A stretch of 64,000 nt of DNA from Pristiophorus japonicus (Eukaryota): positions 310,001 to 374,000 of the forward strand of contig NW_027251778.1 of NCBI RefSeq assembly GCF_044704955.1. The letters run 5' to 3'. Below are positions 5,591 to 64,000 of this stretch, one piece after another. The notes below the pieces were generated by a model. That model ran no database searches. It was given only the letters and a program-made list of their open reading frames with translations, and had not been told where the DNA came from. A program made the translations under genes and the position numbers. How positions within the stretch are numbered: position 1 is the first letter of the stretch; each line of letters opens with the position of its first letter.

Positions 5591-5896
5591 GTAATGCGCT
5601 GTCAGGCCCGCCAGCCTAGTGACCCGCTACCATTGTTGCAGTACAGCAAGGCAGCGCAGAACTGAGTTGTTTCCGCAAAGGATTTGCCCGTCAGAGCCTG
5701 CTTTGGTATAAATTCGCCGGAGAGGGGCCCGTGTTAATTGGCCATTTCATCTGGTCGTCGCAACCCCAAATGGCAGAGGGATTAAAGGCGAGATTTCACA
5801 TGGCGCGAGGCGAAACTGAAAGTAATGCCAGTCTCCGGATTAGCGGCTTGCGAGCGAGCGACCACGCGGTGTATTACTGCGCCGATAACCCTGGAG
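5591..5896 (+). pseudogene. TRBV: Family-B V B1, pseudogene
   Basis: TAG TGA in FR1; heptamer mutated to CATAGCC. Confidence 0.85.
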
Positions 5897-11413: not shown

Positions 11414-11709
11414 GTAATGTGCTGTCAGACCCGCTAGCCCAGTGGCCCGCTACCGGTGTTGCAGTACAGCAAGGCAGCGCGGAACTGACTTGTTTTCGCA
11501 ATGGATTCGCCCGCTTTCGTATAAATTCGCCGGAGAAGGGCTAGTGTTAATTGGCTATTTCATCTGGTCGTCGCAACCCCAAATGTCAGAGGGACTAAAG
11601 GCGAGATTTCACATGGCGCGAAGCGAGAGTGAAAGGAAAGCCATTCTCTGGATTAGCGGCTTGAGAGCGAGCGACCAGGCGGTGTATTACTGAGCCGATA
11701 GTGTTGGAG
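11414..11709 (+). pseudogene. TRBV: Family-B V B2, pseudogene
   Basis: 10-nt deletion before the Trp motif; TAC TGA at the 2nd Cys; RSS 11710-11748. Confidence 0.87.
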
Positions 11710-12356: not shown

Positions 12357-13513
12357 ATGATGTGTACTGTTTGCCTATATACAGTGTTGCTGATTCTCGC
12401 AGGTAACTCTTTATACCTGTCGGGCAATTCGGGCCCGGTTTAATCTGCTAACTGATAGTCGGGTTGCTGAATGTACGCTGCAATCAGTTAGCTAACTTAA
12501 AGGCTTGATAATTGTTTAGTGAAGCAAGTTGTTAAGAGCAGGAGTGTCCTGCCTGAGAGGGTAGTGAAACACATTCGATAGTAACTCGTAAAAGGCAATT
12601 GGATCAATAGCTGAAGGCGGAAGTTCTGTTGGGAGAAGGTGTGTCGGAGTAGGAATAATCGGGAGGTTGTTTCAAAGAGACAGCACTGCAAGATGGACCA
12701 AATGGTGTACTCTGCTCCTACTCTTACTCTCCTACTCTTCTGTAGCACCCCATGATCCGACAAATACATTATATTGTGGCCTAATTGGTTTCTAAATAAA
12801 TGTCACGTGATTTGTCGGCTCCCTTTGAGCTGAAGGTTGGACGGGCGGAGGCGGCGAGTGCCGGCTGATTGCCCAGGTGAGAGAGCCGAACCCGTCCGTC
12901 TCCATCGACTGGTGGGCGATGCAAAGGAGCCAGAATCGTCGGCGCAGCGAGTGAGGGGAGCTGGCTAACATGTTGCCCGCAACCCCACACAGCATTGGGC
13001 ACTGAGACCAAGTGTAGCGATTTAGCGCCACTCCGTTTGTGAGCAGCTGATTCTAAGCCATCCACAGATGACGAGGCTGTATTTTAGCTGGGCGTACTGT
13101 TCGACTGTGGTGTGCATCGCGCGTTTTGACTGAAAGTGTCTCTCTCTATATATGTATCCCTGATGTACCTGTTTATATTTGACACGACCTGTTTCTCCTG
13201 TTCCCCTGCAGCCCCTTGCAGGAGCGCTCTGATATCCCAGTGGTCCAAACGCCTATCGCTTGGAGCGGGGCTCGCTGCTGAAATGCATTGTTACCAGAAC
13301 GACTCCAGCTATAGCTACATGCACTGGTACCGTCAGCGTAGCGGGACAGGCTTTCAGCTCTTTTCGACCTCGCTCACCACCAACGACCACACGCCTGAAG
13401 ACGGTTTCGAGGAGAAGTTTAAAGGCACCAGACCCGATCTTAAATCTTACAGCCTAAAAACACTGAGCATGGAGCCGGCTGACACAGCGGTGTATTAATG
13501 CGCTGCCAGTGAT
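12357..13513 (+). pseudogene. TRBV: Family-A V A5, pseudogene with intact leader (12357-12402; exon 13212-13513)
   Basis: TAT TAA before the 2nd Cys; heptamer CATAATG. Confidence 0.87.
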
Positions 13514-14629: not shown

Positions 14630-14935
14630 GTAATGTGCTTTCAGACCCGCTAGCCCAGTGGCCTGCTACCATTGTTGCAGTACAGCAAGGCAGCGCGGAA
14701 CTGACTTGTTTTCGCAATGGATTCGCCCGTCAAAGCCTGCTTTGGTATAAATTCGCCGGAGAAGGGCTCGTGTTAATTGGCTATTTCATCTGGTCGTCGC
14801 AACCCCAAATGGCAGAGGGACTAAAGGCGAGATTTCACATGGCGCGAAGCGAGAGTGAAAGGAAAGCCATTCTCCGGATCAGCGGCTTGAGAGCGAGCGA
14901 CCAGGCGGTGTATTACTGCGCCGATAGTGTTGGAG
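14630..14935 (+). CDS. TRBV: Family-B V exon B3, open frame, no leader of its own
   Basis: Acceptor ttccag|GT; NVLSDPLAQWP..ELTC..LLWYK..DQAVYYCADSVG; RSS 14936-14974. Confidence 0.82.
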
Positions 14936-14974
14936 CACAGCGCTACAGACAGAGGCACAACCCGGCCCCAAACC
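14936..14974 (+). other. 23-RSS of family-B V (representative)
   Basis: CACAGCG + 23 nt + CCCCAAACC. Confidence 0.82.
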
Positions 14975-17942: not shown

Positions 17943-18154
17943 GTAATGTGCTGTCGGACCCGCTAGCCCAGTTGCCCGCTTCGATTGTTGTAGTATAGCG
18001 AGGCAGCGCAGAACTGAATGGTTTTCGCAGTGGATTCGCCTATCAGAGTCTGCTTTGGTATAAATTCGCCGGGAAAGGGCCCGTGTTAATTGGCTTTTTC
18101 ATCTGGTGGTCGCAACGCCAAAGGGCAGAGTGATTAACGGGGAGATTTCACATG
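17943..18154 (+). pseudogene. TRBV: Family-B V B4, truncated pseudogene
   Basis: TAG in FR1; 1st Cys lost; 3' third and RSS deleted. Confidence 0.85.
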
Positions 18155-22700: not shown

Positions 22701-23475
22701 ATCAATAGATTGCCCATTGCAAAAGTAGTTCTGTGCACTGATTATTCTTACATTTACATCTCAGAAACAAGAATCTGCATTGCCCGGATGAGGAAAATTT
22801 CTATTGGATACTCTTGCAATGACGTTACTTCCTCCACCAACCACAAAACAAGGCACAGCGGCGATAAGATCCCATTGAGTGTCAGCAGGGCAGGGTTGGG
22901 AGGTGGGGAGTCTGTGACCATGATGTGCACTGTTTGCCTATATACGCTGTTGTTAGTTCTCGCAGGTAAGTCTTTATACCTGTCGGGCAATTCGGGCACG
23001 GTTTAACCTGCTAACTGATAGTCGGGTTGCTGAATGTACGCTGCAATCAGTTAGCTCACTTAAAGGCTTTATAATTGTTCAGCGCAGCGAGTTGTCGGAT
23101 CAGAAGTGTCCAGCCTGAGAGGGCGGTGGAACTCACTAAATAGTAACTCGCAAAGGCAAATTGGATCAGTAACTGAAGGGGGAAATTCTGCAGAGCTGTT
23201 GGGAGAAGGTATGTCGGAGTAAGAATAATCGGGAGGGTGTTTCATTGAGACAGCACTGCAAGATGGACCAAATGGTCTACTCTGCTGTAATACCCCATGT
23301 TCCTCCAATTCTATTATATTGTGGTCTAATTGGTTTCTACATATATGTCACCTACCTCGTCGCCTCCGTTTGAGCTGAAAGTTAGACAGGCCGAGACGGC
23401 GGGTCCAGGCCGATTGCCCAGGTGAGTGAACCAAACCAGTCCGTCTCCATAGCCTGGTGGACAGAGAAAAGGAGC
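18992..23475. repeat. 2,242-bp tandem duplication, junction at ~21234
   Basis: ORFs 19323/21565 and 20441/22683 are offset by 2,242. Confidence 0.9.
20678..21993 (+). CDS. TRBV: TCR V segment A8 (leader 20678-20723, exon 21692-21993), chimeric intron, intact
   Basis: Open frame; RSS 21994-22032. Confidence 0.85.
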
Positions 23476-24055
23476 CAGAATCAGCGGCGCACTGGGTGAG
23501 CGGAGCCCACTAACATGTTACCACCAACCCTCCCAGCAATGGTCACTGAGGCCAAGTGTACCAATTTAGCACCACTCCGGTCATGACCAGCTGGTAATAA
23601 GCCATCCACAGATGACGAGTCTGTATTTTAGCGGGTCGCACTGTTCGACTGTGTTGTGCATCGCGCATTTTGGTAGAAAGTTTCTCGCTCTCTCTCTATC
23701 CCCGTTGTAGCTGTTTATATTTGACCCGAACTGTTTCTCCTGTTCCTCTGTAGCCCCTTGCAGGAGCGCTGTGGTGTCCCAGTGGCCGAACCGGCTGTCG
23801 CTTGGAGTGGGGCTCACCGCTGAAATGCACTGTTACCAGAACGACACCAGCGATAACTACATGGACTGGTACCAGCAGCGTAGCGGGGCAGGGTTCCAGC
23901 TCATAGCGACCTCGGTCACTACCAATGACCCCACGCCTGAAGACGGTTTCAAGGAGAGGTTTAAAGGCACCAGAACCGATCTTAAATCTTGCAGCCTGAA
24001 AATACTGACAATGGAGCCAGGTGACACGGCGGTGTATTACTGCGCTGCCAGTGAT
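22920..24055 (+). CDS. TRBV: TCR V segment A9 (leader 22920-22965, exon 23754-24055), open frame, MDW instead of MYW
   Basis: RSS 24056-24094. Confidence 0.83.
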
Positions 24056-25178: not shown

Positions 25179-25484
25179 GTAATGTGCTTTCAGACCCGCT
25201 AGCCCAGTGGCCTGCTACCATTGTTGCAGTACAGCAAGGCAGCGCGGAACTGACTTGTTTTCGCAATGGATTCGCCCGTCAAAGCCTGCTTTGGTATAAA
25301 TTCGCCGGAGAAGGGCTCGTGTTAATTGGCTATTTCATCTGGTCGTCGCAACCCCAAATGGCAGAGGGACTAAAGGCGAGATTTCACATGGCGCGAAGCG
25401 AGAGTGAAAGGAAAGCCATTCTCCGGATCAGCGGCTTGAGAGCGAGCGACCAGGCGGTGTATTACTGCGCCGATAGTGTTGGAG
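25179..25484 (+). CDS. TRBV: Family-B V exon B5, open frame, leaderless
   Basis: Same protein as B3; RSS 25485-25523. Confidence 0.82.
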
Positions 25485-26239
25485 CACAGCGCAACAGACA
25501 GAGGCACAACCCGGCCCCAAACCGCCAGCAACTGATTGGTTTGTTCAGATCCGTTACACGTATTTCCATCATTCCCCGGGTGAGCTCAACTTTCAGTCTC
25601 TCCTTCTCTCTGTCTCGAGAAAGAAAGGATGAAAGAAAGAAAGAAGAAAGAAAGAAGGAGAGAAAGCAAGACAGTAAAAAGGAGAAAAGTAACGACAGAA
25701 AGCAGAGAAAGAAGGAAGGAGAGAAAGGAAGGAGAGAAAGAAAGTTGGAGAGAAGGAAGGAAAAGAGAGAAGGAAAGAGAGAGAGAATGAAAGCAGGACA
25801 GAAAGCAAGGAGTGAAAGAACGAAGGAGAACAAGAAAGATGGATTGAAATCAAGAAGGAGAGAAAGAAAGAATGAGAGATAGAAAGAAAGAGTGAAAGAA
25901 AAAAGCACAGTAAGAAAGAAAGAATGGGTGAAAGAAAGACAGGTGAGAAAGGATGTTGTGTAGCTGCACAAAGCTCATATATGTCAACCGTTCAAAACAT
26001 AACCAAACTGGCGAACTCTTTGAACAGATTGCTCACTGCCAAAGCAGTCCTGCCGACTAATTATTCTGACATTGACATCTCAGAAGCAAGGATTGACTTT
26101 GCCCGGTTAAGGGAACGTTCTATTGGGCAATCTTGCAATGACGTTACTTCCTCCACCAACCACAAAACGAGGTGCAAGAAGCGATAAGATCCCATTGAGT
26201 GCCAGCAGGGCTGGGCTGGGAGGTGGGGAGTCTGTGATC

Positions 26240-28491: not shown

Positions 28492-28703
28492 GTAATGTGC
28501 TGTCGGACCCGCTAGCCCAGTTGCCCGCTTCGATTGTTGTAGTATAGCGAGGCAGCGCAGAACTGAATGGTTTTCGCAGTGGATTCGCCTATCAGAGTCT
28601 GCTTTGGTATAAATTCGCCGGAAAAGGGCCCGTGTTAATTGGCTTTTTCATCTGGTGGTCGCAACGCCAAAGGGCAGAGTGATTAACGGGGAGATTTCAC
28701 ATG
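28492..28703 (+). pseudogene. TRBV: Family-B V B6, truncated (copy of B4)
   Basis: Same lesions as B4. Confidence 0.85.
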
Positions 28704-31227: not shown

Positions 31228-32364
31228 ATGATGTGCACTGTTTGCCTATATACGCTGTTGTTAGTTCTCGCAGGTAAGTCTTTATACCTGTCGGGCAATT
31301 CGGGCACGGTTTAACCTGCTTACTGATAGTCGGGTTGCTGAATGTACGCTGCAATCAGTTAGCTCACTTAAAGGCTTTATAATTGTTCAGCGCAGCGAGT
31401 TGTTCGGATCAGAAGTGTCCAGCCTGAGAGGGCGGTGGAACTCACTAAATAGTAACTCGCAAAGGCAAATTGGATCAGTAACTGAAGGGGGAAATTCTGC
31501 AGAGCTGTTGGAAGAAGGTATGTCGGAGTAAGAATAATCGGGAGGGTGTTTCATTGAGACAGCACTGCAAGATGGACCAAATGGTCTACTCTGCTGTAAT
31601 ACCCCATGTTCTTCCAATTCTATTATATTGTGGTCTAATTGGTTTCTAAATATATGTCACCTACCTCGTCGCCTCCGTTTGAGCTGAAAGTTAGACAGGC
31701 CGAGACGGCGGGTCCAGGCCGATTGCCCAGGTGAGTGAACCAAACCAGTCCATCTCCATAGCCTGGTGGACAGAGAAAAGGAGCCAGAATCAGCGGTGCA
31801 CTGGGTGAGCGGAGCCCACTAACATGTTACCACCAACCCTCCCAGCAATGGTCACTGAGGCCAAGTGTACCAATTTAGCACCACTCCGGTCGTGACCAGC
31901 TGGTAATAAGCCATCCACAGATGACGAGTCTGTATTTTAGCGGGTCGCACTGTTCGACTGTGTTGTGCATCGCGCGTTTTGGTAGAAAGTTTCTCGCTCC
32001 CTCTCTATCCCCGTTGTAGCTGTTTATATTTGACCCGAACTGTTTCTCCTGTTCCTCTGCAGCCCCTTGCAGGAGCGCTGTGGTGTCCCAGTGGCCGAAC
32101 CGGCTGTCGCTTGGAGTGGGGCTCACCGCTGAAATGCACTGTTACCAGAACGACACCAGCGATAACTACATGTACTGGTACCAGCAGCGTAGCGGGGCAG
32201 GGTTCCAGCTCATAGCGACCTCGGTCACTACCAATGACCCCACGCCTGAAGACGGTTTCAAGGAGAGGTTTAAAGGCACCAGAACCGATCTTAAATCTTG
32301 CAGCCTGAAAATACTGAGAATGGAGCCGGGTGACACGGCGGTGTATTACTGCGCTGCCAGTGAT
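31228..32364 (+). CDS. TRBV: TCR V segment A12 (leader 31228-31273, exon 32063-32364), intact
   Basis: Open frame; RSS from 32365. Confidence 0.87.
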
Positions 32365-33487: not shown

Positions 33488-33793
33488 GTAATGTGCTTTC
33501 AGACCCGCTAGCCCAGTGGCCTGCTACCATTGTTGCAGTACAGCAAGGCAGCGCGGAACTGACTTGTTTTCGCAATGGATTCGCCCGTCAAAGCCTGCTT
33601 TGGTATAAATTCGCCGGAGAAGGGCTCGTGTTAATTGGCTATTTCATCTGGTCATCGCAACCCCAAATGGCAGAGGGACTAAAGGCGAGATTTCACATGG
33701 CGCGAAGCGAGAGTGAAAGGAAAGCCATTCTCCGGATCAGCGGCTTGAGAGCGAGCGACCAGGCGGTGTATTACTGCGCCGATAGTGTTGGAG
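33488..33793 (+). CDS. TRBV: Family-B V exon B7, open frame, leaderless
   Basis: RSS 33794-33832. Confidence 0.82.
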
Positions 33794-34548
33794 CACAGCG
33801 CTACAGACAGAGGCACAACCCGGCCCCAAACCGCCAGCAACTGATTGGTTTGTTCAGATCCGTTACACGTATTTCCATCATTCCCCGGGTGAGCTCAACT
33901 TTCAGTCTCTCCTTCTCTCTGTCTCGAGAAAGAAAGGATGAAAGAAAGAAAGAAGAAAGAAAGAAGGAGAGAAAGCAAGACAGTAAAAAGGAGAAAAGTA
34001 ACGACAGAAAGCAGAGAAAGAAGGAAGGAGAGAAAGAAAGGAGAGAAAGAAAGTTGGAGAGAAGGAAGGAAAAGAGAGAAGGAAAGAGAGAGAGAATGAA
34101 AGCAGGACAGAAAGCAAGGAGTGAAAGAACGAAGGAGAACAAGAAAGATGGATTGAAATCAAGAAGGAGAGAAAGAAAGAATGAGAGATAGAAAGAAAGA
34201 GTGAAAGAAAAAAGCACAGTAAGAAAGAAAGAATGGGTGAAAGAAAGACAGGTGAGAAAGGATGTTGTGTATCTGCACAAAGCTCATATATGTCAACCGT
34301 TCAAAACATAACCAAACTGGCGAACTCTTTGAACAGATTGCTCACTGCCAAAGCAGTCCTGCCGACTAATTATTCTGACATTGACATCTCAGAAGCAAGG
34401 ATTGACTTTGCCCGGTTAAGGGAACGTTCTATTGGGCAATCTTGCAATGACGTTACTTCCTCCACCAACCACAAAACGAGGTGCAAGAAGCGATAAGATC
34501 CCATTGAGTGCCAGCAGGGCTGGGCTGGGAGGTGGGGAGTCTGTGATC

Positions 34549-36800: not shown

Positions 36801-37012
36801 GTAATGTGCTGTCGGACCCGCTAGCCCAGTTGCCCGCTTCGATTGTTGTAGTATAGCGAGGCAGCGCAGAACTGAATGGTTTTCGCAGTGGATTCGCCTA
36901 TCAGAGTCTGCTTTGGTATAAATTCGCCGGAAAAGGGCCCGTGTTAATTGGCTTTTTCATCTGGTGGTCGCAACGCCAAAGGGCAGAGTGATTAACGGGG
37001 AGATTTCACATG
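36801..37012 (+). pseudogene. TRBV: Family-B V B8, truncated (copy of B4)
   Basis: Same lesions as B4. Confidence 0.85.
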
Positions 37013-39536: not shown

Positions 39537-40673
39537 ATGATGTGCACTGTTTGCCTATATACGCTGTTGTTAGTTCTCGCAGGTAAGTCTTTATACCTGT
39601 CGGGCAATTCGGGCACGGTTTAACCTGCTAACTGATAGTCGGGTTGCTGAATGTACGCTGCAATCAGTTAGCTCACTTAAAGGCTTTATAATTGTTCAGC
39701 GCAGCGAGTTGTTCGGATCAGAAGTGTCCAGCCTGAGAGGGCGGTGGAACTCACTAAATAGTAACTCGCAAAGGCAAATTGGATCAGTAACTGAAGGGGG
39801 AAATTCTGCAGAGCTGTTGGAAGAAGGTATGTCGGAGTAAGAATAATCGGGAGGGTGTTTCATTGAGACAGCACTGCAAGATGGACCAAATGGTCTACTC
39901 TGCTGTAATACCCCATGTTCCTCCAATTCTATTATATTGTGGTCTAATTGGTTTCTAAATATATGTCACCTACCTCGTCGCCTCCGTTTGAGCTGAAAGT
40001 TAGACAGGCCGAGACGGCGGGTCCAGGCCGATTGCCCAGGTGAGTGAACCAAACCAGTCCATCTCCATAGCCTGGTGGACAGAGAAAAGGAGCCAGAATC
40101 AGCGGCGCACTGGGTGAGCGGAGCCCACTAACATGTTACCACCAACCCTCCCAGCAATGGTCACTGAGGCCAAGTGTACCAATTTAGCACCACTCCGGTC
40201 GTGACCAGCTGGTAATAAGCCATCCACAGATGACGAGTCTGTATTTTAGCGGGTCGCACTGTTCGACTGTGTTGTGCATCGCGCGTTTTGGTAGAAAGTT
40301 TCTCGCTCCCTCTCTATCCCCGTTGTAGCTGTTTATATTTGACCCGAACTGTTTCTCCTGTTCCTCTGCAGCCCCTTGCAGGAGCGCTGTGGTGTCCCAG
40401 TGGCCGAACCGGCTGTCGCTTGGAGTGGGGCTCACCGCTGAAATGCACTGTTACCAGAACGACACCAGCGATAACTACATGTACTGGTACCAGCAGCGTA
40501 GCGGGGCAGGGTTCCAGCTCATAGCGACCTCGGTCACTACCAATGACCCCACGCCTGAAGACGGTTTCAAGGAGAGGTGTAAAGGCACCAGAACCGATCT
40601 TAAATCTTGCAGCCTGAAAATACTGAGAATGGAGCCAGGTGACACGGCGGTGTATTACTGCGCTGCCAGTGAT
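39537..40673 (+). CDS. TRBV: TCR V segment A15 (leader 39537-39582, exon 40372-40673), open frame, RF changed to RC in FR3
   Basis: RSS from 40674. Confidence 0.83.
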
Positions 40674-41796: not shown

Positions 41797-42102
41797 GTAA
41801 TGTGCTTTCAGACCCGCTAGCCCAGTGGCCTGCTACCATTGTTGCAGTACAGCAAGGCAGCGCGGAACTGACTTGTTTTCGCAATGGATTCGCCCGTCAA
41901 AGCCTGCTTTGGTATAAATTCGCCGGAGAAGGGCTCGTGTTAATTGGCTATTTCATCTGGTCGTCGCAACCCCAAATGGCAGAGGGACTAAAGGCGAGAT
42001 TTCACATGGCGCGAAGCGAGAGTGAAAGGAAAGCCATTCTCCGTATCAGCGGCTTGAGAGCGAGCGACCAGGCGGTGTATTACTGCGCCGATAGTGTTGG
42101 AG
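41797..42102 (+). CDS. TRBV: Family-B V exon B9, open frame, leaderless
   Basis: RSS 42103-42141. Confidence 0.82.
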
Positions 42103-42857
42103 CACAGCGCTACAGACAGAGGCACAACCCGGCCCCAAACCGCCAGCAACTGATTCGTTTGTTCAGATCCGTTACACGTATTTGCATCATTCCCCGGGTG
42201 AGCTCAACTTTCAGTCTCTCCTTCTCTCTGTCTCGAGAAAGAAAGGATGAAAGAAAGAAAGAAGAATGAAAGAAGGAGAGAAAGCAAGACAGTAAAAAGG
42301 AGAAAAGTAACGACAGAAAGCAGAGAAAGAAGGAAGGAGAGAAAGAAAGGAGAGAAAGAAAGTTGGAGAGAAGGAAGGAAAAGAGAGAAGGAAAGAGAGA
42401 GAGAATGAAAGCAGGACAGAAAGCAAGGAGTGAAAGAACGAAGGAGAACAAGAAAGATGGATTGAAATCAAGAAGGAGAGAAAGAAAGAATGAGAGATAG
42501 AAAGAAAGAGTGAAAGAAAAAAGCACAGTAAGAAAGAAAGAATGGGTGAAAGAAAGACAGGTGAGAAAGGATGTTGTGTATCTGCACAAAGCTCATATAT
42601 GTCAACCGTTCAAAACATAATCAAACTGGCGAACTCTTTGAACAGATTGCTCATTGCAAAAGCAGTCCTGCCGACTAATTATTCTGACATTGACATCATA
42701 GAAGCAAGGATTGACTTTGCCCGGTTAAGGGAACGTACTATTGGGCAATCTTGCAATGACGTTACTTCCTCCACCAACCAGAAAACGAGGTGCAAGAAGC
42801 GATAAGATCCCATTGCGTGCCAGCAGGGCTGGGCTGGGAGGTGGGGAGTCTGCGATC

Positions 42858-43750: not shown

Positions 43751-45035
43751 TGGCCCGCTACCATTGTTGCTGTGCAGCAAGGCATCGCGGAACTTCTTTG
43801 GTATAGATCCGCCCGAGAAGGGCCGGTGTTAACAGGCAGGCAGTGACTAGTGGGGTACCGCAAGGTTCTGTGCTGGGGCCCTAGCTGTTTACATTGTACA
43901 TTAATGATTTAGACGAGGAGATTAAATGTAGTATCTCCAAATTTGCGGATGACGCTAAGTTGAATGGCAGTGTAAGCTGTGAGGAGGCTGCTATGAGGCT
44001 GCTGACTGACTTGGATAGGTTAGGTAAGTGGGCAAATGCATGGCAAATGAAGTATAATGTGGATAACTGTGAGGTTATGCACTTTGGTTGTAAAAACAGA
44101 GAGACAGACTATTATCTGAATAGTGACATATTTGAAAAGGGGAGGTGTAACGAGACCTGGGTGTCATGGTACACCCGTCATTGAAGGTTGTCATGCAGGT
44201 ACAGCAGGCGGTTAAGAAAGCAAATGACATGTTGGCCTTCATATCGAGGGGATTTGAGTACAGGGGCAGGGAGGTGTTACTACAGTTGTACAGGGCCTTG
44301 GTGAGGCCACATCTGGAGTATTGTGTACAGTTTTGTTCTCCTTACTTGAGGAAGGACATTCTTGCTATTGAGGGAGCGCAGCGAAGGTTCACCAGACTGA
44401 TTCCCGGGATGGTGGGACTGACATATCAAGAAAGACTGGATCAACTGTGCTTGTATTCACTGGAGTTCAGAAGAATGAGAGGGGATTTCATAAAAACGTT
44501 TAAAATTCTGATGGATTTAGTCACGTTAGATGCAGGAAGAATGTTCCCAATGTTGGAGAAGTCCAGAACCAGGGGTCACAGTCTCAGGATAAGGGGGAAG
44601 CCATTTAGGACCGAGATGAGGAGATATTTCTTCACCCAGAGAGTGGTGAAGCTGTGAAATTCTCTACCACAGAAAGTTGTTGAGGCCAATTCACTAAATA
44701 TATTCAAAAAGGAGTTAGATGAAGTCCTTACTACTCGGGGGATCAAGGGGTATGGCAAGAAAGCAGGAACGGGGTACTGAGGTTGCATGTTCAGCCATGA
44801 ACTCATTGAATGACGGTGAAGGCTCGAAGGACCGAATGGCCTACTCCTGCACCTATTTTCTATGTTGCTATGTTTCTAAGTTATTTCACCTGGTCGTCGC
44901 AACACCAAATGGCAGACGGATTAAAGGCGAGATTTCACATGGCACGAAGCGAGAGTGACAGGAAATTCAGTCTCCGGATTAGCGGCTTGAGAGCGAGCGA
45001 CCAGGCGGTGTATTACTGCGCTGATAGTGTTGGAG
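43751..45035 (+). pseudogene. TRBV: Family-B V B10, internally deleted and split by a LINE insertion
   Basis: 5' pieces 43751-43832; 3' half 44881-45035 (WSSQHQMADGLK..YYCADSVG); RSS 45036-45074. Confidence 0.82.
43835..44878 (+). mobile_element. 5'-truncated CR1-clade LINE (RT C-terminal half plus 3'UTR)
   Basis: VTSGVPQGSVLGP, INDLD, KFADD and [12 protein letters not shown] motifs; frameshift at ~44170; ends in a ctatgtt-type tail. Confidence 0.93.
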
Positions 45036-45913: not shown

Positions 45914-47007
45914 ATGATGTGCACTGTTTGCTTATATACACTATTGCTGGTTCTCGCAGGTAACTATTTACACCTGTCGGGCAATTCGGGCCCGGTTGAA
46001 TCTGGTTATTTATATTCGGGTTGCTGAATGTTTGCAGAAATCAGTTAGATTGCTTAAAGATTTCATAATTGTTTAGCGCAGCGAGTTGTTAGGATCAGGG
46101 GTGTCCTGACTGAAAGGGCGGTGAAACACCTTCAATAGTAACTCGCAAAGGACAATTTGATCAATAGCTGAAGGAGGAATTCTGCAGGGCTGATGGAGAA
46201 GGTGTTTCAGAGTAGGAATAATCGGGAGGTTGTTTCAAAAAGACAACAAATCAAGATGGATCAAATGGTTTGCTACCCTGCTGTAATACCCCATGTTTCT
46301 GCAAATTCATTATATTGGGGCCGAATTGCTTTCTAGAGCTACGTCACGTGCCTCGTTGCATCTCTGTGCGCTGAAGGTTGAACGGGCCGAGGCTGCTGGT
46401 CCCGAGCGATTGCCACGTGAATGAGCCGGACCCGTCTCCAAGGACTGGTGGGTGGTGCAAAGGAGCTAGAATCGGGGGCACACGGGGTGAGGGGAGCCCG
46501 TTAACATGTAACAATTTCACACTTTTCCGGTCGTGATCAGCTGACACTAGGCCATCCACAGTTTACGAGTCTATATTTTAGCTGGGCGTACTGTTCGACT
46601 GTGGTGTGCATCGCGCGTTTTGACTGAAAGTGTCTCTCTCTATATATGTATCCCTGATGTACCTGTTTATATTTGACGCGACCTGTTTCGCCTGTTCCCC
46701 TGTAGCCCCTTGCAGGAGCGCTCTCGTTTCCCAGTGGTCGAAATTTCTGTCGCTTGGAGCGGGGCTCACTGCTGAAATGCATTGTTACCAGAACGACTCC
46801 AGCTATAGCTACATGTACTGGTACCGGCAGCGTAGCGGGGCAGGGTTTCAGCTCATCGCGACCTCGATCAACACCAACGACCCCACGGCTGAAGACAGTT
46901 TTAAGAAGAGGTTTAAAGGCACCAGACACAATCTTAAATCTTGCAGCCTAAAAATACTGAGCGTGGAGCCGACTGACACGGCGGTGTATTACTGCGCTGC
47001 CAGTGAT
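45914..47007 (+). CDS. TRBV: TCR V segment A17 (leader 45914-45959, exon 46706-47007), intact
   Basis: RSS 47008-47046. Confidence 0.87.
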
Positions 47008-47066
47008 CACAGTGATGCAAGCAGGTTTAGCCCTGCGTCAAAAACACACGACGCTCTCACACTGAG

Positions 47067-47105
47067 CACAGATCGACAGACAGAGGCACAACTCGGCACC
47101 AAACC
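47067..47105 (+). other. Orphan family-B 23-RSS directly behind the A17 RSS
   Basis: CACAGAT + 23 nt (cgacagacagaggcacaactcgg) + CACCAAACC. Confidence 0.75.
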
Positions 47106-50518: not shown

Positions 50519-50824
50519 GTAATGTGCTGTCAGACCCGCTAGCCCAGTGTACCGCTTCCATTGTTGCAGTATAGCAAGGCAGCGCGGAGCTGAGCTATTT
50601 CCGCAATGGTTTCGCCCGTCAGAGCCTGCTTTGGAATAAATTCGTCGGAGAGGAGCCCGTGTTAATTGGCTATTACATCTGGTCGGCGCAACCCCAAATG
50701 CCAGAGGGATTAAAGGCGATATTTCACATGGCACGAGGCGAGACTGAAAGGAAAGCCAGTCTCCGGATTAGCGGCTTGAGAGCGAGTGACCAGGCGGTGT
50801 ATTACTGAGCCGATAGCGTTGCAG
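50519..50824 (+). pseudogene. TRBV: Family-B V B11, pseudogene
   Basis: TAG in FR1; both Cys lost (TAT, TGA); RSS CACAGTG at 50825. Confidence 0.85.
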
Positions 50825-51290: not shown

Positions 51291-51596
51291 GTAATGCGCT
51301 GTCAGGCCCGCCAGCCTAGTGACCCGCTACCATTGTTGCAGTACAGCAAGGCAGCGCAGAACTGAGTTGTTTCCGCAAAGGATTTGCCCGTCAGAGCCTG
51401 CTTTGGTATAAATTCGCCGGAGAGGGGCCCGTGTTAATTGGCCATTTCATCTGGTCGTCGCAACCCCAAATGGAAGAGGGATTAAAGGCGAGATTTCACA
51501 TGGCGCGAGGCGAAACTGAAAGTAATGCCAGTCTCCGGATTAGCGGCTTGCGAGCGAGCGACCACGCGGTGTATTACTGCGCCGATAACCCTGGAG
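51291..51596 (+). pseudogene. TRBV: Family-B V B12 (copy of B1)
   Basis: TAG TGA in FR1; heptamer CATAGCC. Confidence 0.85.
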
Positions 51597-55147: not shown

Positions 55148-55453
55148 GCAATGTGCTGTCAGACCCGCTAGCCCAGTGGCCCGCTACCATTGTTGCAGTT
55201 CAGCAAGGCAGCGCCGAACTGCGTTGTTTAAGCAATGGATTCGCCCGTCAGACCCTGCTTCGGTATAAATTAGCTGGAGAAGGGCCCGTGTTAATTGGCT
55301 ATGTCATCTGGTCGTCGCAAACCCAAATGGCAGAGGGATTAAAGGCGAGATTTCACATGGCACGAGGCGAGACTGAAAGGAAAGCCAGTCTCCGGATTAG
55401 CGGCTTGTGAGCGAGCGACCAGGCGGTGTATTACTGCGCCGAAAGTGTTGGAG
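55148..55453 (+). pseudogene. TRBV: Family-B V B13, pseudogene
   Basis: Conserved Trp changed to Arg; TGA at 55408-55410; RSS from 55454. Confidence 0.85.
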
Positions 55454-58274: not shown

Positions 58275-58580
58275 GTAATGCGCTGTCAGGCCCGCTGGCC
58301 CAGTGGCCCGCTACCAATGTTGCAGTACAGCAAGGCAGCGCGGAACTGAGTTGTTTAAGCAATGGATTCGCCCGTCAGACCCTGCTTCGGTATAAATGCG
58401 TCCGGGAGGGGCCCGTGTTAATTGGCTATTTCATCTGGTCATCGCAACCCCAAATGGCAGAGTGATTGAAGGCGAGATGTCACATGGCGCGAAGCGAGAC
58501 TGAAAGGAAAGCCAGGCTCCGGATTAGCGGCTTGCGAGCGAGCGACCAGGCGGTGTATTACTGCGCCGATACCGTTGGAG
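58275..58580 (+). pseudogene. TRBV: Family-B V B14, pseudogene
   Basis: Trp changed to Arg; TGA at 58463-58465; heptamer CACAGTA. Confidence 0.85.
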
Positions 58581-59139: not shown

Positions 59140-60258
59140 ATGATGAGTACAGTTTGCCTATATACACTGTTGCTGGTTCTCGCAGGTAACTCTTTACACC
59201 TGTCGGGCAATTCGGCCCAGGTTTAATCTGGTAACTTATATTCGGTTGCTGAATATACGCTGCAATCAGTTAGATCACTTAAATGGTGTATAATTGTTTA
59301 GCACAGCGAGTTGTTAGGGTCAGTAGTGTCCTGCCTGAGAGGACGGTGGAAAACATTCAATAGTAACTCGCAAAAGACAATTGGATCAATAGCTGAAGGG
59401 GGAAATTCTGCAGGGCTGTGGGGAGAAGGCGTTTCGGTGTTGGAATAATCAGGAGGTTGTTACAAAGAGACAGCAGCTCCAGATGGACCAAATCGTTTGC
59501 TACCCTGTTGTGACACCCTATGTTCCGACAAATCCATTTTAATTGGTATCTCGATATAAGTCACGTGCCTCGTTGCATCACTTTGCGCTGAAGGTTGGGC
59601 GGGCCGGGGCAGCGGGTCCAGAGCGATTGCCCAGGTGAGTGAGCCGAACACATCCGTCTCCATCAAATGGTGGATGGTGCAAAGGAGCTAGAATCGCGGG
59701 CACACGGGGTGAGAGGAGCCCGCTAACATGTTGCATTCCCTCCCCCCCCCCACGCCCCCACCACCAGCAACGGGCACTGAGACCAAGTTTAGCAATTTTA
59801 CAATGTTCTGGTCGTGATCAGCTGACGCTAGGACATCCACATTTGACGACTCTATATTTTATCTGGGCGTACTGTTCGACTGTGGTGTGCATCGCGCGTT
59901 TTGACAGAAAGTGTCTCTCTCTATATTTGTATCCCTGATGTACCTGTTTATATTTGACGCGACCTGTTTCTCCTGTTCCCCTGTAGCCCCTTGCAGGAGC
60001 GCTCTCGTTTCCCCGTGGTCGAAAACTCCTGTTGCTTGGAGCGGGGCTCACTGCTGAAATGCATTCTTACCAGAACGACTCCAGCTATAGCTACATGTAC
60101 TGGTACCGGCAGCGTAGCGGGCCAGGCTTTCAGCTCATCGTGAGCTCGATCAGCACCAACAACCCCACGGCTGAAGACAGTTTCAAGGAGAGGTTTAAAG
60201 GCACCAGACCCGATGTTAAATCTTGCAGCCTAAAAATACTGCGCCGATAGCGTTGGAG
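59140..60258 (+). pseudogene. TRBV: Chimeric A21/B pseudogene (leader 59140-59185, exon from 59987)
   Basis: +1 insertion in FR1; 1st Cys changed to Ser; fused at TACTG (60237-60241) to a family-B end and RSS 60259-60297. Confidence 0.85.
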
Positions 60259-60389
60259 CACAGCGCTGCAGACAGAGGCACAACCCGGCCCCAAACCGCC
60301 AGAAACTGATTGCTTTGTGCAGATCCGTTACACGTTTTTCCATCATTCCCCAGGTGAGCTCAATTTTCAGTCTCTCCTTCTCTCTGTCT

Positions 60390-60855: not shown

Positions 60856-61143
60856 GTTGTGTATCTGCACACAGCTCATATATATCAACAGTTCAAAAGG
60901 TAATGAAACTCGCGAACACTGTCAATAGATTGCACATTGCAAATGCAGTCCTATGTATTGATTATTCCTGCATCTACACCTCAGAAACAAGAATCTGCAT
61001 TGCCCGGATGAGGAAATTTTTTTTTAGACACTCTTGCAATGACGTTACTTCCTGCACCACCAACAAAAAGAGGAGCAGGTGGCGATAAGATCCTATTGTA
61101 TGTCAGCAGGGCTGCTCTGTGAGGTGGGGAGTCTGTGATCATC

Positions 61144-62262
61144 ATGTGCACTGTTTGCCTAAATACACTGTTGCTGGTTCTCGCAGGTAACTCTTTATAC
61201 CTGTCGGGCAATTCGTGCCCGGTGTAATCTGGTAACTTATATTCGGGTTGCTGAATGTACGCTGCAATCAGTTAGATCATTTAAATGTTTCATAATTGTT
61301 TAGCGCAGCAAGTTGTTAGGATCAGGGGTGTGCTGCCTGAGAGGGCGGTGGAACACATTCAATAGTAACTCGCAAAACGCAATTGCATCAATAGCTGTCG
61401 GGGGAAATTCTGCAGGGCTGCAGGGAGAAGGTGTGTTGGAGTAGGATTAATCGGGATGTTGTTTCAAAGAGATAGCACTGCAAGTTGGAGCACATAGTAT
61501 CCGACCATTATATAACACCGCATTTTCCTACAAATCCATTATATTGTGGCCTAATAGGTTTCTAAATATATGTCACATTCCTCATCGCCTCCCTTTGAGC
61601 TGAAATTTGGACGGGGTGAGGCGGCGGGTCCCGGCCGATTGGCCAGGTGAGTGAGGCGAACAAGTCCGTCTCCATAGACTGGTGGATGATGCAAAGGAGC
61701 CAGAGTCCGTGGCGCAGATAATGAGGGGAGCCCGCTAACATGTTGCCCCCACCCGTGAAGCAATGGGCACTGACGACTAGTGTAGCGATTTAGCGCCGCT
61801 GCGGTCGTAATCAGCATTCAAAGACAACGAGTCTGTATTTTAGCAGGTCGAACTATTTGACTGTGGTGTGCATCGCGCGTTTTGTCAGAAAGTGTCTCTC
61901 TCTCTCTCTCTCTATCCCCGTTGTAGCTGTTTATATTTGACCAGACCCGTTTCTCCTGTTACTCTGTAGCCCCTTGCAGGAGTGCGTTCGTTTCCCAGTG
62001 GCCGAACCGGCTGTCGCTTGGAGCGGGGCTCACCGCTGAAATGCACTGTTACCAGAACGACACCAGCGAAAATTACATGTACTGGTACCGGCAGCGTAGC
62101 GGGTCAGGCTTCCAGCTCATAGCGACCTCGTTCTCCATCAGCGACCCCACGCCTGAAGACAGTTTCAAGGAGAGGTTTAAAGGCACCAGACGCGATATTA
62201 AATCTTGCATACTGAGCCTGGAGCCGGTTGACATGGTGGTGTATTACTGCGCTGCCAGTGAT
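61144..62262 (+). pseudogene. TRBV: Family-A V A22: open frame but probably non-rearranging (leader 61144-61186, exon 61970-62262)
   Basis: 9-nt deletion removes SLK in FR3; heptamer CGCAGTG lacks the essential CAC. Confidence 0.78.
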
Positions 62263-62495
62263 CGCAGTGATGCAAGCAGGATTAGCCCGACGTCAAAAAC
62301 ACATCACCTCTCACACTGAGCCGAAAACTGACTTAAGCAGAGTTAAAAAAGTCACCTTCTCATCGATGAATGCTCAGCACGTTTTCTGGTGACTGCAACG
62401 TGTTGAATAAGGGCATCTATTCTAATTTAGAATAATCAAAAAAGATTTCTGGATACCAAATCAAACGGATTATTTCAACCAAATTCTTTATGATA

Positions 62496-63235
62496 ACATA
62501 TGAAATAAGAGCATGGGTGGGCCATTCAGCCCCTCGAGCCTGCTCCGCCTCTCAATAAGGTCAGGGCTGATCTGATTATGGACTCAGTTCCACTTCGCCG
62601 CCTATTCCCCATAACCCTTGCCTTCCTTATCAATCAAAAATCTGTCTGTCTCCACCTTAAATATATTCAATGACCCAACCTCCACAGGTCTGTGGGGTGG
62701 AGAATTCAAAAGTTTCATGAACCTCTGACCGAAGAAATTCCTCCACATCTCCGTCTTAAATATGCGGTCTCTAATTCTGAAACTATGTCCCCTAATTCTA
62801 GATTCCCCCCAGGAGGGGAAACATCCTCTCTGCATCTCCCCTGTCGAGCCTCCACTGAATCTTATACTTTTGAATAAGATCACCTCATTCCTCTAAACGC
62901 CAATGTGTACATGCGCAACCTGCTTAACCTTTCCTCAGAAGGGAACCACCTCATCTCAGGAATCAACCACGTGAAGCTTCTCTGAACAGCCTCCAATGCA
63001 AGTATATACTTCCTTAAATAGGGAGAGCAAAACTGCACACAGTACTCCAGGTGTGGTCTCACCAACGCACTGTTGGAAGCAGATTCAGCTTTTAAAAGGA
63101 ATTTTGGATATATACTTGCAAAGAACAACAACATGTCGGGCTATGGGGAAAAAGCAGGGGTTGGGATAGTCCTATTCATTGCATGATGCAGACTGCACGG
63201 GCTAGCTTGGCTCCTTCTGCGCTCTGTGAATTTGT
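62496..63235 (-). mobile_element. CR1-like LINE fragment plus tail
   Basis: ORFs 62602-62883 and 62880-63134 carry CR1 motifs. Confidence 0.83.
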
Positions 63236-63369
63236 GCAGATTTTCTGCCTCCAATATAATTTTTAGTTGTTGCTTGCTCTCTTCCTTGATCCACAGAATT
63301 AAACTTCAGTCAAATGCCTCGTTGATTGCGTTTCTGATCGATCTTAATTGAGCCCCTATTCCTTTCCAG

Positions 63370-63675
63370 GTAATGCGCTGTCAGGCCCGCTCGCCCAGTG
63401 GCCCGCTACCATTGTTGCAGTACAGCAAGGCAGCGCCGAACTGAGTTGTTTCCGCAATGGATTCGCCCGTCAGACCCTGCTTTGGTATAAATTCGTCGGA
63501 GAGGGGCCCGTGATAATTGGCTATTTCATCTGGTCGTCGCAACCCCAAATGGCAGAAGAATTGAAGGCGAGATTTCACATGGCACGAAGCGAGAGTGCAA
63601 GGAAAGCCATCCTCCGCATTAGCGGCTTGCGAGCGAGCGACCAGGCGGTGTATTACTGCGCCGATAGCGTTGGAG
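63370..63675 (+). CDS. TRBV: Family-B V exon B15, open frame, leaderless, diverged from the B3 group
   Basis: Cys/Trp/Cys intact; RSS CACAGCG at 63676, TCCCAAACC 63706-63714. Confidence 0.82.
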
Positions 63676-64000
63676 CACAGCGATACAGGCAGAGGCACAA
63701 CCCGGTCCCAAACCTCCTGAAACTGATTGCTTTGTGCAGATCCGTTACACGTATTTCCATCATTCCCCAGGTGATCTGAATTTTCAGTCTCTCCTTCTCT
63801 CTGTCTCGAGAACGAAAGGAAAGAAGAAAGGTAGAAGCAGGAATGAAGGAGAGAATGAAAGTAATAAAAATTGAGAGAAGGAATGAAAGAAAGAAGGAGA
63901 GAAAGAAAGGAGGGGAGGAAGAAGCAAGGGAGAAAGTAAAAAGGAGCGAAAGGAAGAATGTTTTGTATCTGCACAAAGCTCATATATGTCAACCGTTCAA

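What the first reader, a model, noticed from the sequence alone, without database searches (positions are those of the whole stretch)
63370..63675. Intact leaderless B exons show a purifying-selection signature
A hand codon alignment of B3 (14630-14935) against B15 (63370-63675) gives ~16 synonymous and ~9 nonsynonymous differences, no indels, with Cys/Trp/Cys retained. Neutral drift would give roughly 2.5-3 times more nonsynonymous than synonymous changes. Both copies share the same leaderless, LINE-flanked context, so the constraint appears to post-date leader loss. That argues they are, or recently were, translated.
Basis: partly seen in the sequence, partly recalled or inferred. Interest (0 to 1): 0.7.

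Follow-up and report, generated by a model that had tools for sequence, protein, structure and literature searches.

The report
Selected leaderless shark TCR-beta V genes
In a shark's T-cell receptor beta locus, a family of variable gene segments with no recognisable start (signal-peptide) exon of its own has its intact copies under clear purifying selection while broken copies drift neutrally, so the intact ones are likely used by borrowing the start exon of the neighbouring segment, a trick already known from mouse and newt.

Summary
Observation confirmed. B3 vs B15 differ by 16 synonymous and 9 nonsynonymous changes. ML dN/dS is 0.20 (p=1.4e-4 against 1), while three non-overlapping pairs of broken B copies give 0.93-1.05. 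The window is a tandem TCR-beta V array, 14 kb upstream of D, J and C-beta. The repeat unit is promoter-leader-V(A)-RSS-LINE fragments-V(B)-RSS. No hydrophobic leader exon lies between A and any of the 5 intact B copies. No leader-bearing B turned up in the genome; the only other copy is broken and shows the same context. A's leader and B's acceptor are both phase 1, and the A exons before B3 and B15 are dead while their leaders are intact. Most likely, after B rearranges, A's leader splices over the unrearranged A exon onto B-DJ. That splice was not observed, and expression could not be tested. Leader sharing is known in mouse TRBV12-2/13-2 and newt TRD, and this scan noted it before in other shark genomes. 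New here: an amplified, apparently obligate case with a built-in neutral control. Real, modest novelty.

The parts
63370..63675 (+). B15: intact leaderless TCR-beta V exon, phase-1 acceptor, frame from 63372
   Evidence: (V-set E=1e-7); predicted V-type Ig fold, pLDDT 82, TM about 0.8 to antibody V domains
63676..63714 (+). 23-spacer RSS of B15 (heptamer CACAGCG, nonamer 3 mismatches from consensus)
63341..63369 (+). branch-point-like motif, pyrimidine tract and splice acceptor of B
   Evidence: mean pairwise difference 0.048 vs 0.162 in the preceding 120 columns, 9 lineages, broken ones included
61144..61186 (+). leader exon of the upstream A gene, phase-1 donor; likely the leader borrowed by B15
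   Evidence: the splice to B is inferred
61037..61049 (+). CRE-like promoter motif about 100 nt before the A leader; none between A and B
   Evidence: its role as a TCR V promoter element is recalled
61970..62301 (+). A V exon before B15 with its RSS: 9-nt in-frame deletion in framework 3, heptamer CGCAGTG
62496..63075 (-). 3' end of a LINE-type repeat in reverse orientation
   Evidence: 90 blast hits in fetched loci; assignment to CR1 is recalled from the translated remnant
63076..63240 (+). tail of a second dispersed repeat, holding a weak 14-codon mini-ORF at 63183-63225
14630..14974 (+). B3: intact B exon and RSS; its upstream A (13212-13513) has a stop and heptamer CATAATG, leader 12360-12402 intact
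25179..25523 (+). B5: intact B exon and RSS; upstream A (23754-24055) and leader (22923-22965) intact
33488..33832 (+). B7: intact B exon and RSS; upstream A (32063-32364) intact
41797..42141 (+). B9: intact B exon and RSS; upstream A (40372-40673) open
5591..5896 (+). B1: broken (two stops, heptamer CATAGCC); near twin B12 at 51291-51596
11414..11709 (+). B2: broken (10-nt deletion), sister of the B3 group
50519..50824 (+). B11: broken (stops, both canonical Cys lost)
55148..55453 (+). B13: broken (stop, canonical Trp lost)
58275..58580 (+). B14: broken (stop, canonical Trp lost)
17943..18154 (+). truncated B copy; twins at 28492-28703 and 36801-37012; 3' fragment at 44882-45035

Best explanation
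B is a family of shark TCR-beta V segments with no recognisable leader exon whose intact copies are under purifying selection, and they are likely expressed by borrowing the promoter and leader exon of the A segment just upstream. Shown: V fold class, 23-spacer RSS, position upstream of D-J-C beta, selection, absence of a hydrophobic leader between A and B, matching intron phase. Inferred steps: (1) B rearranges to D-J beta through its own RSS; (2) transcription starts at the A promoter 1.4-2.3 kb upstream; (3) the unrearranged A exon has no good donor before its stop, whereas B-DJ is closed by a strong J donor, so the A leader is spliced to B and A is skipped; (4) the product is an ordinary one-V beta chain. 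B's own promoter and leader were probably lost once, in the region now filled by two LINE fragments, before the unit was amplified.
For: Omega 0.197 for B3/B15 vs 0.98 pooled for three broken pairs. Lineage N/S 0.8 intact vs 2.9 broken; 2 of 1000 bootstraps reverse it. pN 9/231 vs flank 39/265, p=5e-5. No leader candidate with hydropathy 1.5 or more in 5 of 5 intact intervals, while 3 of 3 control A leaders score 2.4-2.7. An in-frame TAA lies 9 codons before the exon with no ATG between (sequence). No TGACG promoter motif between A and B. A leader donor, A acceptor and B acceptor are all phase 1. A exons before B3 and B15 are dead but their leaders and donors are intact. The nearest V family (39% identity) has its own leader 441 nt upstream, so leaderlessness is derived. 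Precedent: mouse TRBV12-2 leader on TRBV13-2 in 46,029 of 69,248 sequences (10.64898/2026.01.30.702900, passages); newt TRD L-V-V units (PMC12698447, passages).
Against: The leader-to-B joint was not seen in any transcript. No B-like protein above about 41% identity from another species was found, so there is no cDNA to show which leader is used. Leaders are open in all 15 units listed, also before broken B copies, so an intact leader before B3 and B15 does not discriminate. The B acceptor is conserved in broken copies as well. The B nonamer has 3 mismatches. The signal rests on two lineages. The strict leader scan missed real leaders with weak donors in the nearest family; the looser scan would have passed them, but the C11 interval was scanned only with the strict one.
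Confidence: 0.7

Rival explanations
1. B uses a substitute first exon taken from the repeat tail: the 14-codon phase-1 mini-ORF at 63183-63225.
For: Open, with ATG and phase-1 GT, in 5 of 5 intact copies against 3 of 7 broken ones; 144 nt from the acceptor.
Against: Hydropathy 0.9-1.2 vs 2.2-2.7 for real leaders. Donor scores 1.5 vs 4.7-9.5 for 14 of 15 locus donors (the 15th was mis-indexed). No promoter motif. By lineage it is 2 of 2 vs 3 of 7, too few to mean anything. Lost in the C11 copy.
Confidence: 0.07
2. Tandem two-V beta chain: leader, unrearranged A, then rearranged B-DJ as a supporting domain, as in NAR-TCR.
For: Leaderless supporting V domains are known in shark TCR-delta (PMC1845163, passages). 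Strict A-B pairing. Phase-1 GT dinucleotides exist at the A 3' end. B has an unusual framework 2.
Against: Those donors score -3.0 to -4.4. A reads into a stop after its RSS. No D or J between A and B. The A before B15 has a framework deletion and the A before B3 has a stop. No CDR1 cysteine in B.
Confidence: 0.04
3. The selection is historical: B was used until recently but the intact copies are no longer expressed.
For: 7 of 12 full-length copies are broken and look neutral from the start of the radiation. Weak nonamer.
Against: Two lineages kept frame, Cys/Trp/Cys, heptamer and acceptor over about 15% flank divergence. The B3 group was recently copied four times with no amino-acid change. 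Past expression still needs a leader source.
Confidence: 0.08
4. The low omega was imported by gene conversion from a leader-bearing B gene outside the assembly, or B uses a more distant or unrecognised leader.
For: The array shows many unequal-crossover junctions. Genome searches score only the best candidates (150 of 312).
Against: 18 of 19 DNA matches lie in this array and the 19th is a broken copy. The next V family is 39% identical. Differences are spread over the whole exon, and pS is not below flank divergence.
Confidence: 0.09
5. Chance or mutational bias in one selected pair.
For: One pair, picked for being intact; its synonymous count is high.
Against: p at or below 0.005 under strong bias models; broken pairs of the same sequence give omega near 1.
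Confidence: 0.02

Closest known systems
Mouse TRBV12-2 (Vbeta5.1) leader spliced to TRBV13-2 (Vbeta8.2); immgenT preprint 10.64898/2026.01.30.702900, passages read; the 1987 original was not held and is recalled
   Same: TCR-beta locus, two interleaved V families, upstream leader exon used on a downstream V exon.
   Different: Mouse TRBV13-2 also makes transcripts with its own leader, so borrowing is optional and is shown by RNA. Here B has no recognisable leader, so borrowing would be obligate, and it is inferred.
Newt (Pleurodeles waltl) TRD L-V-V units; PMC12698447, passages read
   Same: One leader exon shared between two V exons in a tandem unit.
   Different: Delta locus, supported there by amplicon and IsoSeq mapping. 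Here beta locus, unit amplified to 12 full-length copies, support from selection only.
NAR-TCR supporting V-delta of cartilaginous fish; seen through PMC1845163, passages read; Criscitiello 2006 not held
   Same: Leaderless, RSS-bearing V exon in a shark TCR locus.
   Different: Beta not delta; the upstream V is a normal TRBV with canonical Trp; no D/J between the two V exons; no CDR1 cysteine in B.

Membership tests
TCR-beta V segment (TRBV) | V-set domain with canonical Cys, Trp, Cys | tested here: met
   Pfam V-set above cut-off; invariant C26, W38, C96; model pLDDT 82 matches V domains
TCR-beta V segment (TRBV) | 3' RSS with 23-nt spacer | tested here: met
   heptamer 1 and nonamer 3 mismatches; activity untested
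TCR-beta V segment (TRBV) | upstream of D, J and C-beta in the same orientation | tested here: met
   D at C1166:387860-387875, 11 J motifs, C exons at 402079-406087 matching nurse shark TCR-beta P0006
TCR-beta V segment (TRBV) | own promoter and leader exon | tested here: not met
   so B is not a self-contained V gene
Shared-leader (L-V-V) V unit | downstream V lacks or bypasses its own leader and is in phase with the upstream leader | tested here: met
Shared-leader (L-V-V) V unit | transcripts join the upstream leader to the downstream V | not testable with these tools
   no RNA run could be laid on the region (see Tried and rejected)
NAR-TCR supporting V | leaderless V | tested here: met
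NAR-TCR supporting V | upstream NAR-type V with its own D and J | tested here: not met
   A is 66% identical to a nurse shark TCR-beta V; no D or J between A and B
NAR-TCR supporting V | CDR1 cysteine and delta constant region | tested here: not met
   no CDR1 Cys in B3 or B15; constant region is beta

The most novel reading that the evidence does not exclude
B is the membrane-proximal domain of a two-V TCR-beta chain: the unrearranged A exon is spliced through a weak phase-1 donor at its RSS onto rearranged B-DJ, giving a NAR-TCR-like tandem receptor on the beta chain, with B's shortened, Gln-less framework 2 adapted to that role.
Probability: 0.04. Interest if true: 0.8.

Novelty: new member of a known kind. 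Interest (0 to 1): 0.33.

Why it matters
V segments without a leader are normally filed as pseudogenes (recalled annotation practice). Here five such copies carry a measurable selection signal against seven neutral sister copies, so the usable shark TCR-beta repertoire is probably larger than leader-based annotation would count. If borrowing is confirmed, it extends shared-leader V units from mouse and newt to a cartilaginous-fish beta locus, in an obligate form that survived amplification of the whole unit. It gives a simple, testable case of exon definition deciding which V exon a leader reaches. It does not imply a new receptor class unless the low-probability tandem reading holds.

Tried and rejected
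Homologue searches for a cDNA with a B-type V: one search gave 1 hit among 193 candidates (P0001, an automatic chimeric gene model that includes B14 sequence, not a transcript); one search gave 0 of 2; one search gave 332 hits at E up to 0.001, best 150 listed, none above 41% identity. Single-sequence fold was uninformative (pLDDT 43); the alignment-based fold worked. PDB sequence search returned generic antibody V domains among the best 60 shown. N/S of the A exon before B15 (13.1/3.7) was tried as a test of decay and rejected: open A lineages range from 0.9 to 3.1. The strict leader scan has both false positives (22 of 200 shuffles) and misses. The B tree is star-like with inner support of 41-71, so no branch-model test was done; branch-wise ancestral counts are left open. 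Rows left out of the lineage fit: B2, B5, B7, B9, B12 and all truncated copies. Stop codons were skipped. Papers: 10 searches listed no paper describing leader sharing in a shark TCR-beta locus, judged from listings; subscription journals are mostly not held. PMC5931798 passages held nothing on the point. Tables S5K and S5L of the immgenT preprint were not seen and may bear on how general mouse leader sharing is. Earlier-findings look-ups by place and by sequence were empty.

Full report
Observation. The two exons lie where stated and align without indels. The intron is phase 1, so codons start at 63372 and 14632. There are 25 differences, 16 synonymous and 9 nonsynonymous; pS 0.221, pN 0.039; Fisher p=8e-6. 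Models with transition and CpG bias keep p at or below 0.005. A pairwise Goldman-Yang fit gives omega 0.197, LRT 14.5, p=1.4e-4.

Internal control. The array holds 12 full-length B exons, counting one that straddles the window start. Five are intact (B3, B5, B7, B9, B15) and seven are broken; there are also four truncated copies (labels other than B3 and B15 are mine). Three non-overlapping pairs of broken copies give omega 1.05, 0.93 and 0.97, pooled 0.98. Intact-by-broken pairs fall between (pN/pS 0.34-0.66). A least-squares split over 7 lineages gives N/S 0.8 for the 2 intact and 2.9 for the 5 broken; 2 of 1000 bootstraps reverse the order. Nonsynonymous divergence is below that of the upstream flank (9/231 vs 39/265, p=5e-5), and synonymous divergence is not different from it (16/72, p=0.15). 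Limits: B3, B5, B7 and B9 are one lineage, so the result rests on a single contrast, and its synonymous count is high.

What the locus is. The window is G000:C1166:310001-374000. B is a V-set domain with a predicted V-type Ig fold and a 23-spacer RSS. It alternates with family A, which is 66% identical to a nurse shark TCR-beta chain. A D segment, 11 J motifs and C-beta exons follow 14-32 kb downstream. This is a shark TCR-beta V array. The unit is promoter motif, leader, A exon, RSS, two repeat fragments, B exon, RSS, GA-rich repeat.

Is B leaderless? A scan of 12 A-to-B intervals found no hydrophobic phase-1 exon before any of the 5 intact copies; it recovered 3 of 3 control A leaders. An in-frame stop 9 codons before the exon, with no ATG after it, excludes a fused leader. 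No TGACG motif lies between A and B. A stricter scan missed weak-donor leaders in the nearest V family; the thresholds would have passed them (hydropathy 2.21). One weak candidate remains: a 14-codon mini-ORF in the repeat tail, with hydropathy 0.9-1.2 and a poor donor. The nearest family (39% identity) has its own leader 441 nt upstream, so B's state is probably a loss.

Timing and conversion. All aligned intervals share the repeat context. The only B outside the array (C11:26299869-26300217, 76% identical, broken) has the same repeat tail and intron remnant, and no leader by the strict scan. The loss therefore predates the B3/B15 split. No leader-bearing donor appeared among 19 DNA matches or 45 protein matches from 150 of 312 candidates scored. 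Differences are spread along the exon.

Mechanism. The A leader donor and both acceptors are phase 1. The unrearranged A exon has only poor phase-1 donors at its end (scores -3.0 to -4.4 against 4.7-9.5 for 14 of 15 true donors) and reads into a stop. After B joins D-J it would gain a strong J donor. By exon definition (established splicing knowledge, recalled) the leader would then be spliced to B, skipping A. The A exons before B3 and B15 are dead (stop and altered heptamer; 9-nt deletion and altered heptamer) while their leaders are intact. This argues against a two-V chain, though leaders are open in all 15 units listed, so it does not by itself prove borrowing. The A exons before B5, B7 and B9 are open and can presumably rearrange themselves. 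The splice itself was not observed. I put 0.70 on borrowing, 0.09 on a hidden donor or distant leader, 0.08 on recent death, 0.07 on the repeat-derived leader, 0.04 on a tandem chain and 0.02 on chance.

Comparison with what is known. It works like mouse TRBV12-2 leader use by TRBV13-2 (46,029 of 69,248 sequences; 10.64898/2026.01.30.702900, passages) and like newt TRD L-V-V units (PMC12698447, passages). It fails the NAR-TCR tests: no D or J between the V exons, no CDR1 cysteine, beta constant region (PMC1845163, passages). Ten literature searches listed no report for a shark beta locus, but most subscription papers are not held. Three unreviewed notes of this scan describe the same arrangement in other shark genomes; I did not test them and do not count them as support.

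Verdict. The explanation is most likely a known splicing trick in a new lineage, in an apparently obligate and amplified form with an unusually clean neutral control. Novelty: new member of a known kind. Interest 0.33.

Noticed in passing
window 63483-63500 (framework 2 of B15; same in B3): B's framework 2 is one residue shorter than in A and related V families and lacks the Gln that most of them have after the WY(R/K) motif; this may alter pairing with V-alpha.
   Followed up: no
window 63771 and the same place about 56 nt past each B RSS: A donor-like site follows the RSS in 10 of 12 copies listed; the automatic model P0001 uses it to join B14 to a downstream A out of frame.
   Followed up: partly
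window 6461, 42855, 52161: A-type promoter and leader units with no A exon behind them.
   Followed up: no
window 59989-60297 and 46708-47105: A/B junctions from deletions: an A exon fused to the 3' end and RSS of B, and an A RSS running into a B RSS remnant.
   Followed up: no
window 21234-43725: An 8.3-kb block of several units is repeated about three times at 97-99% identity; recent duplication, or partly an assembly effect.
   Followed up: no
G000:C11:26.15-26.32 Mb (L001-L004, L014): A second cluster of TCR-beta-like V exons on a large contig, with A and B relatives largely broken but some other V exons open with leader and RSS.
   Followed up: partly
G000:C1166:466462-567219: V exons on the minus strand downstream of C-beta, at least one close to an upstream family; an inverted V cluster or second locus.
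   Followed up: no
window 52 nt past most A heptamers, e.g. L007 at C1166:306514 and 309081: A second, weak RSS-like motif with 23 spacing follows the A RSS; may be chance.
   Followed up: no
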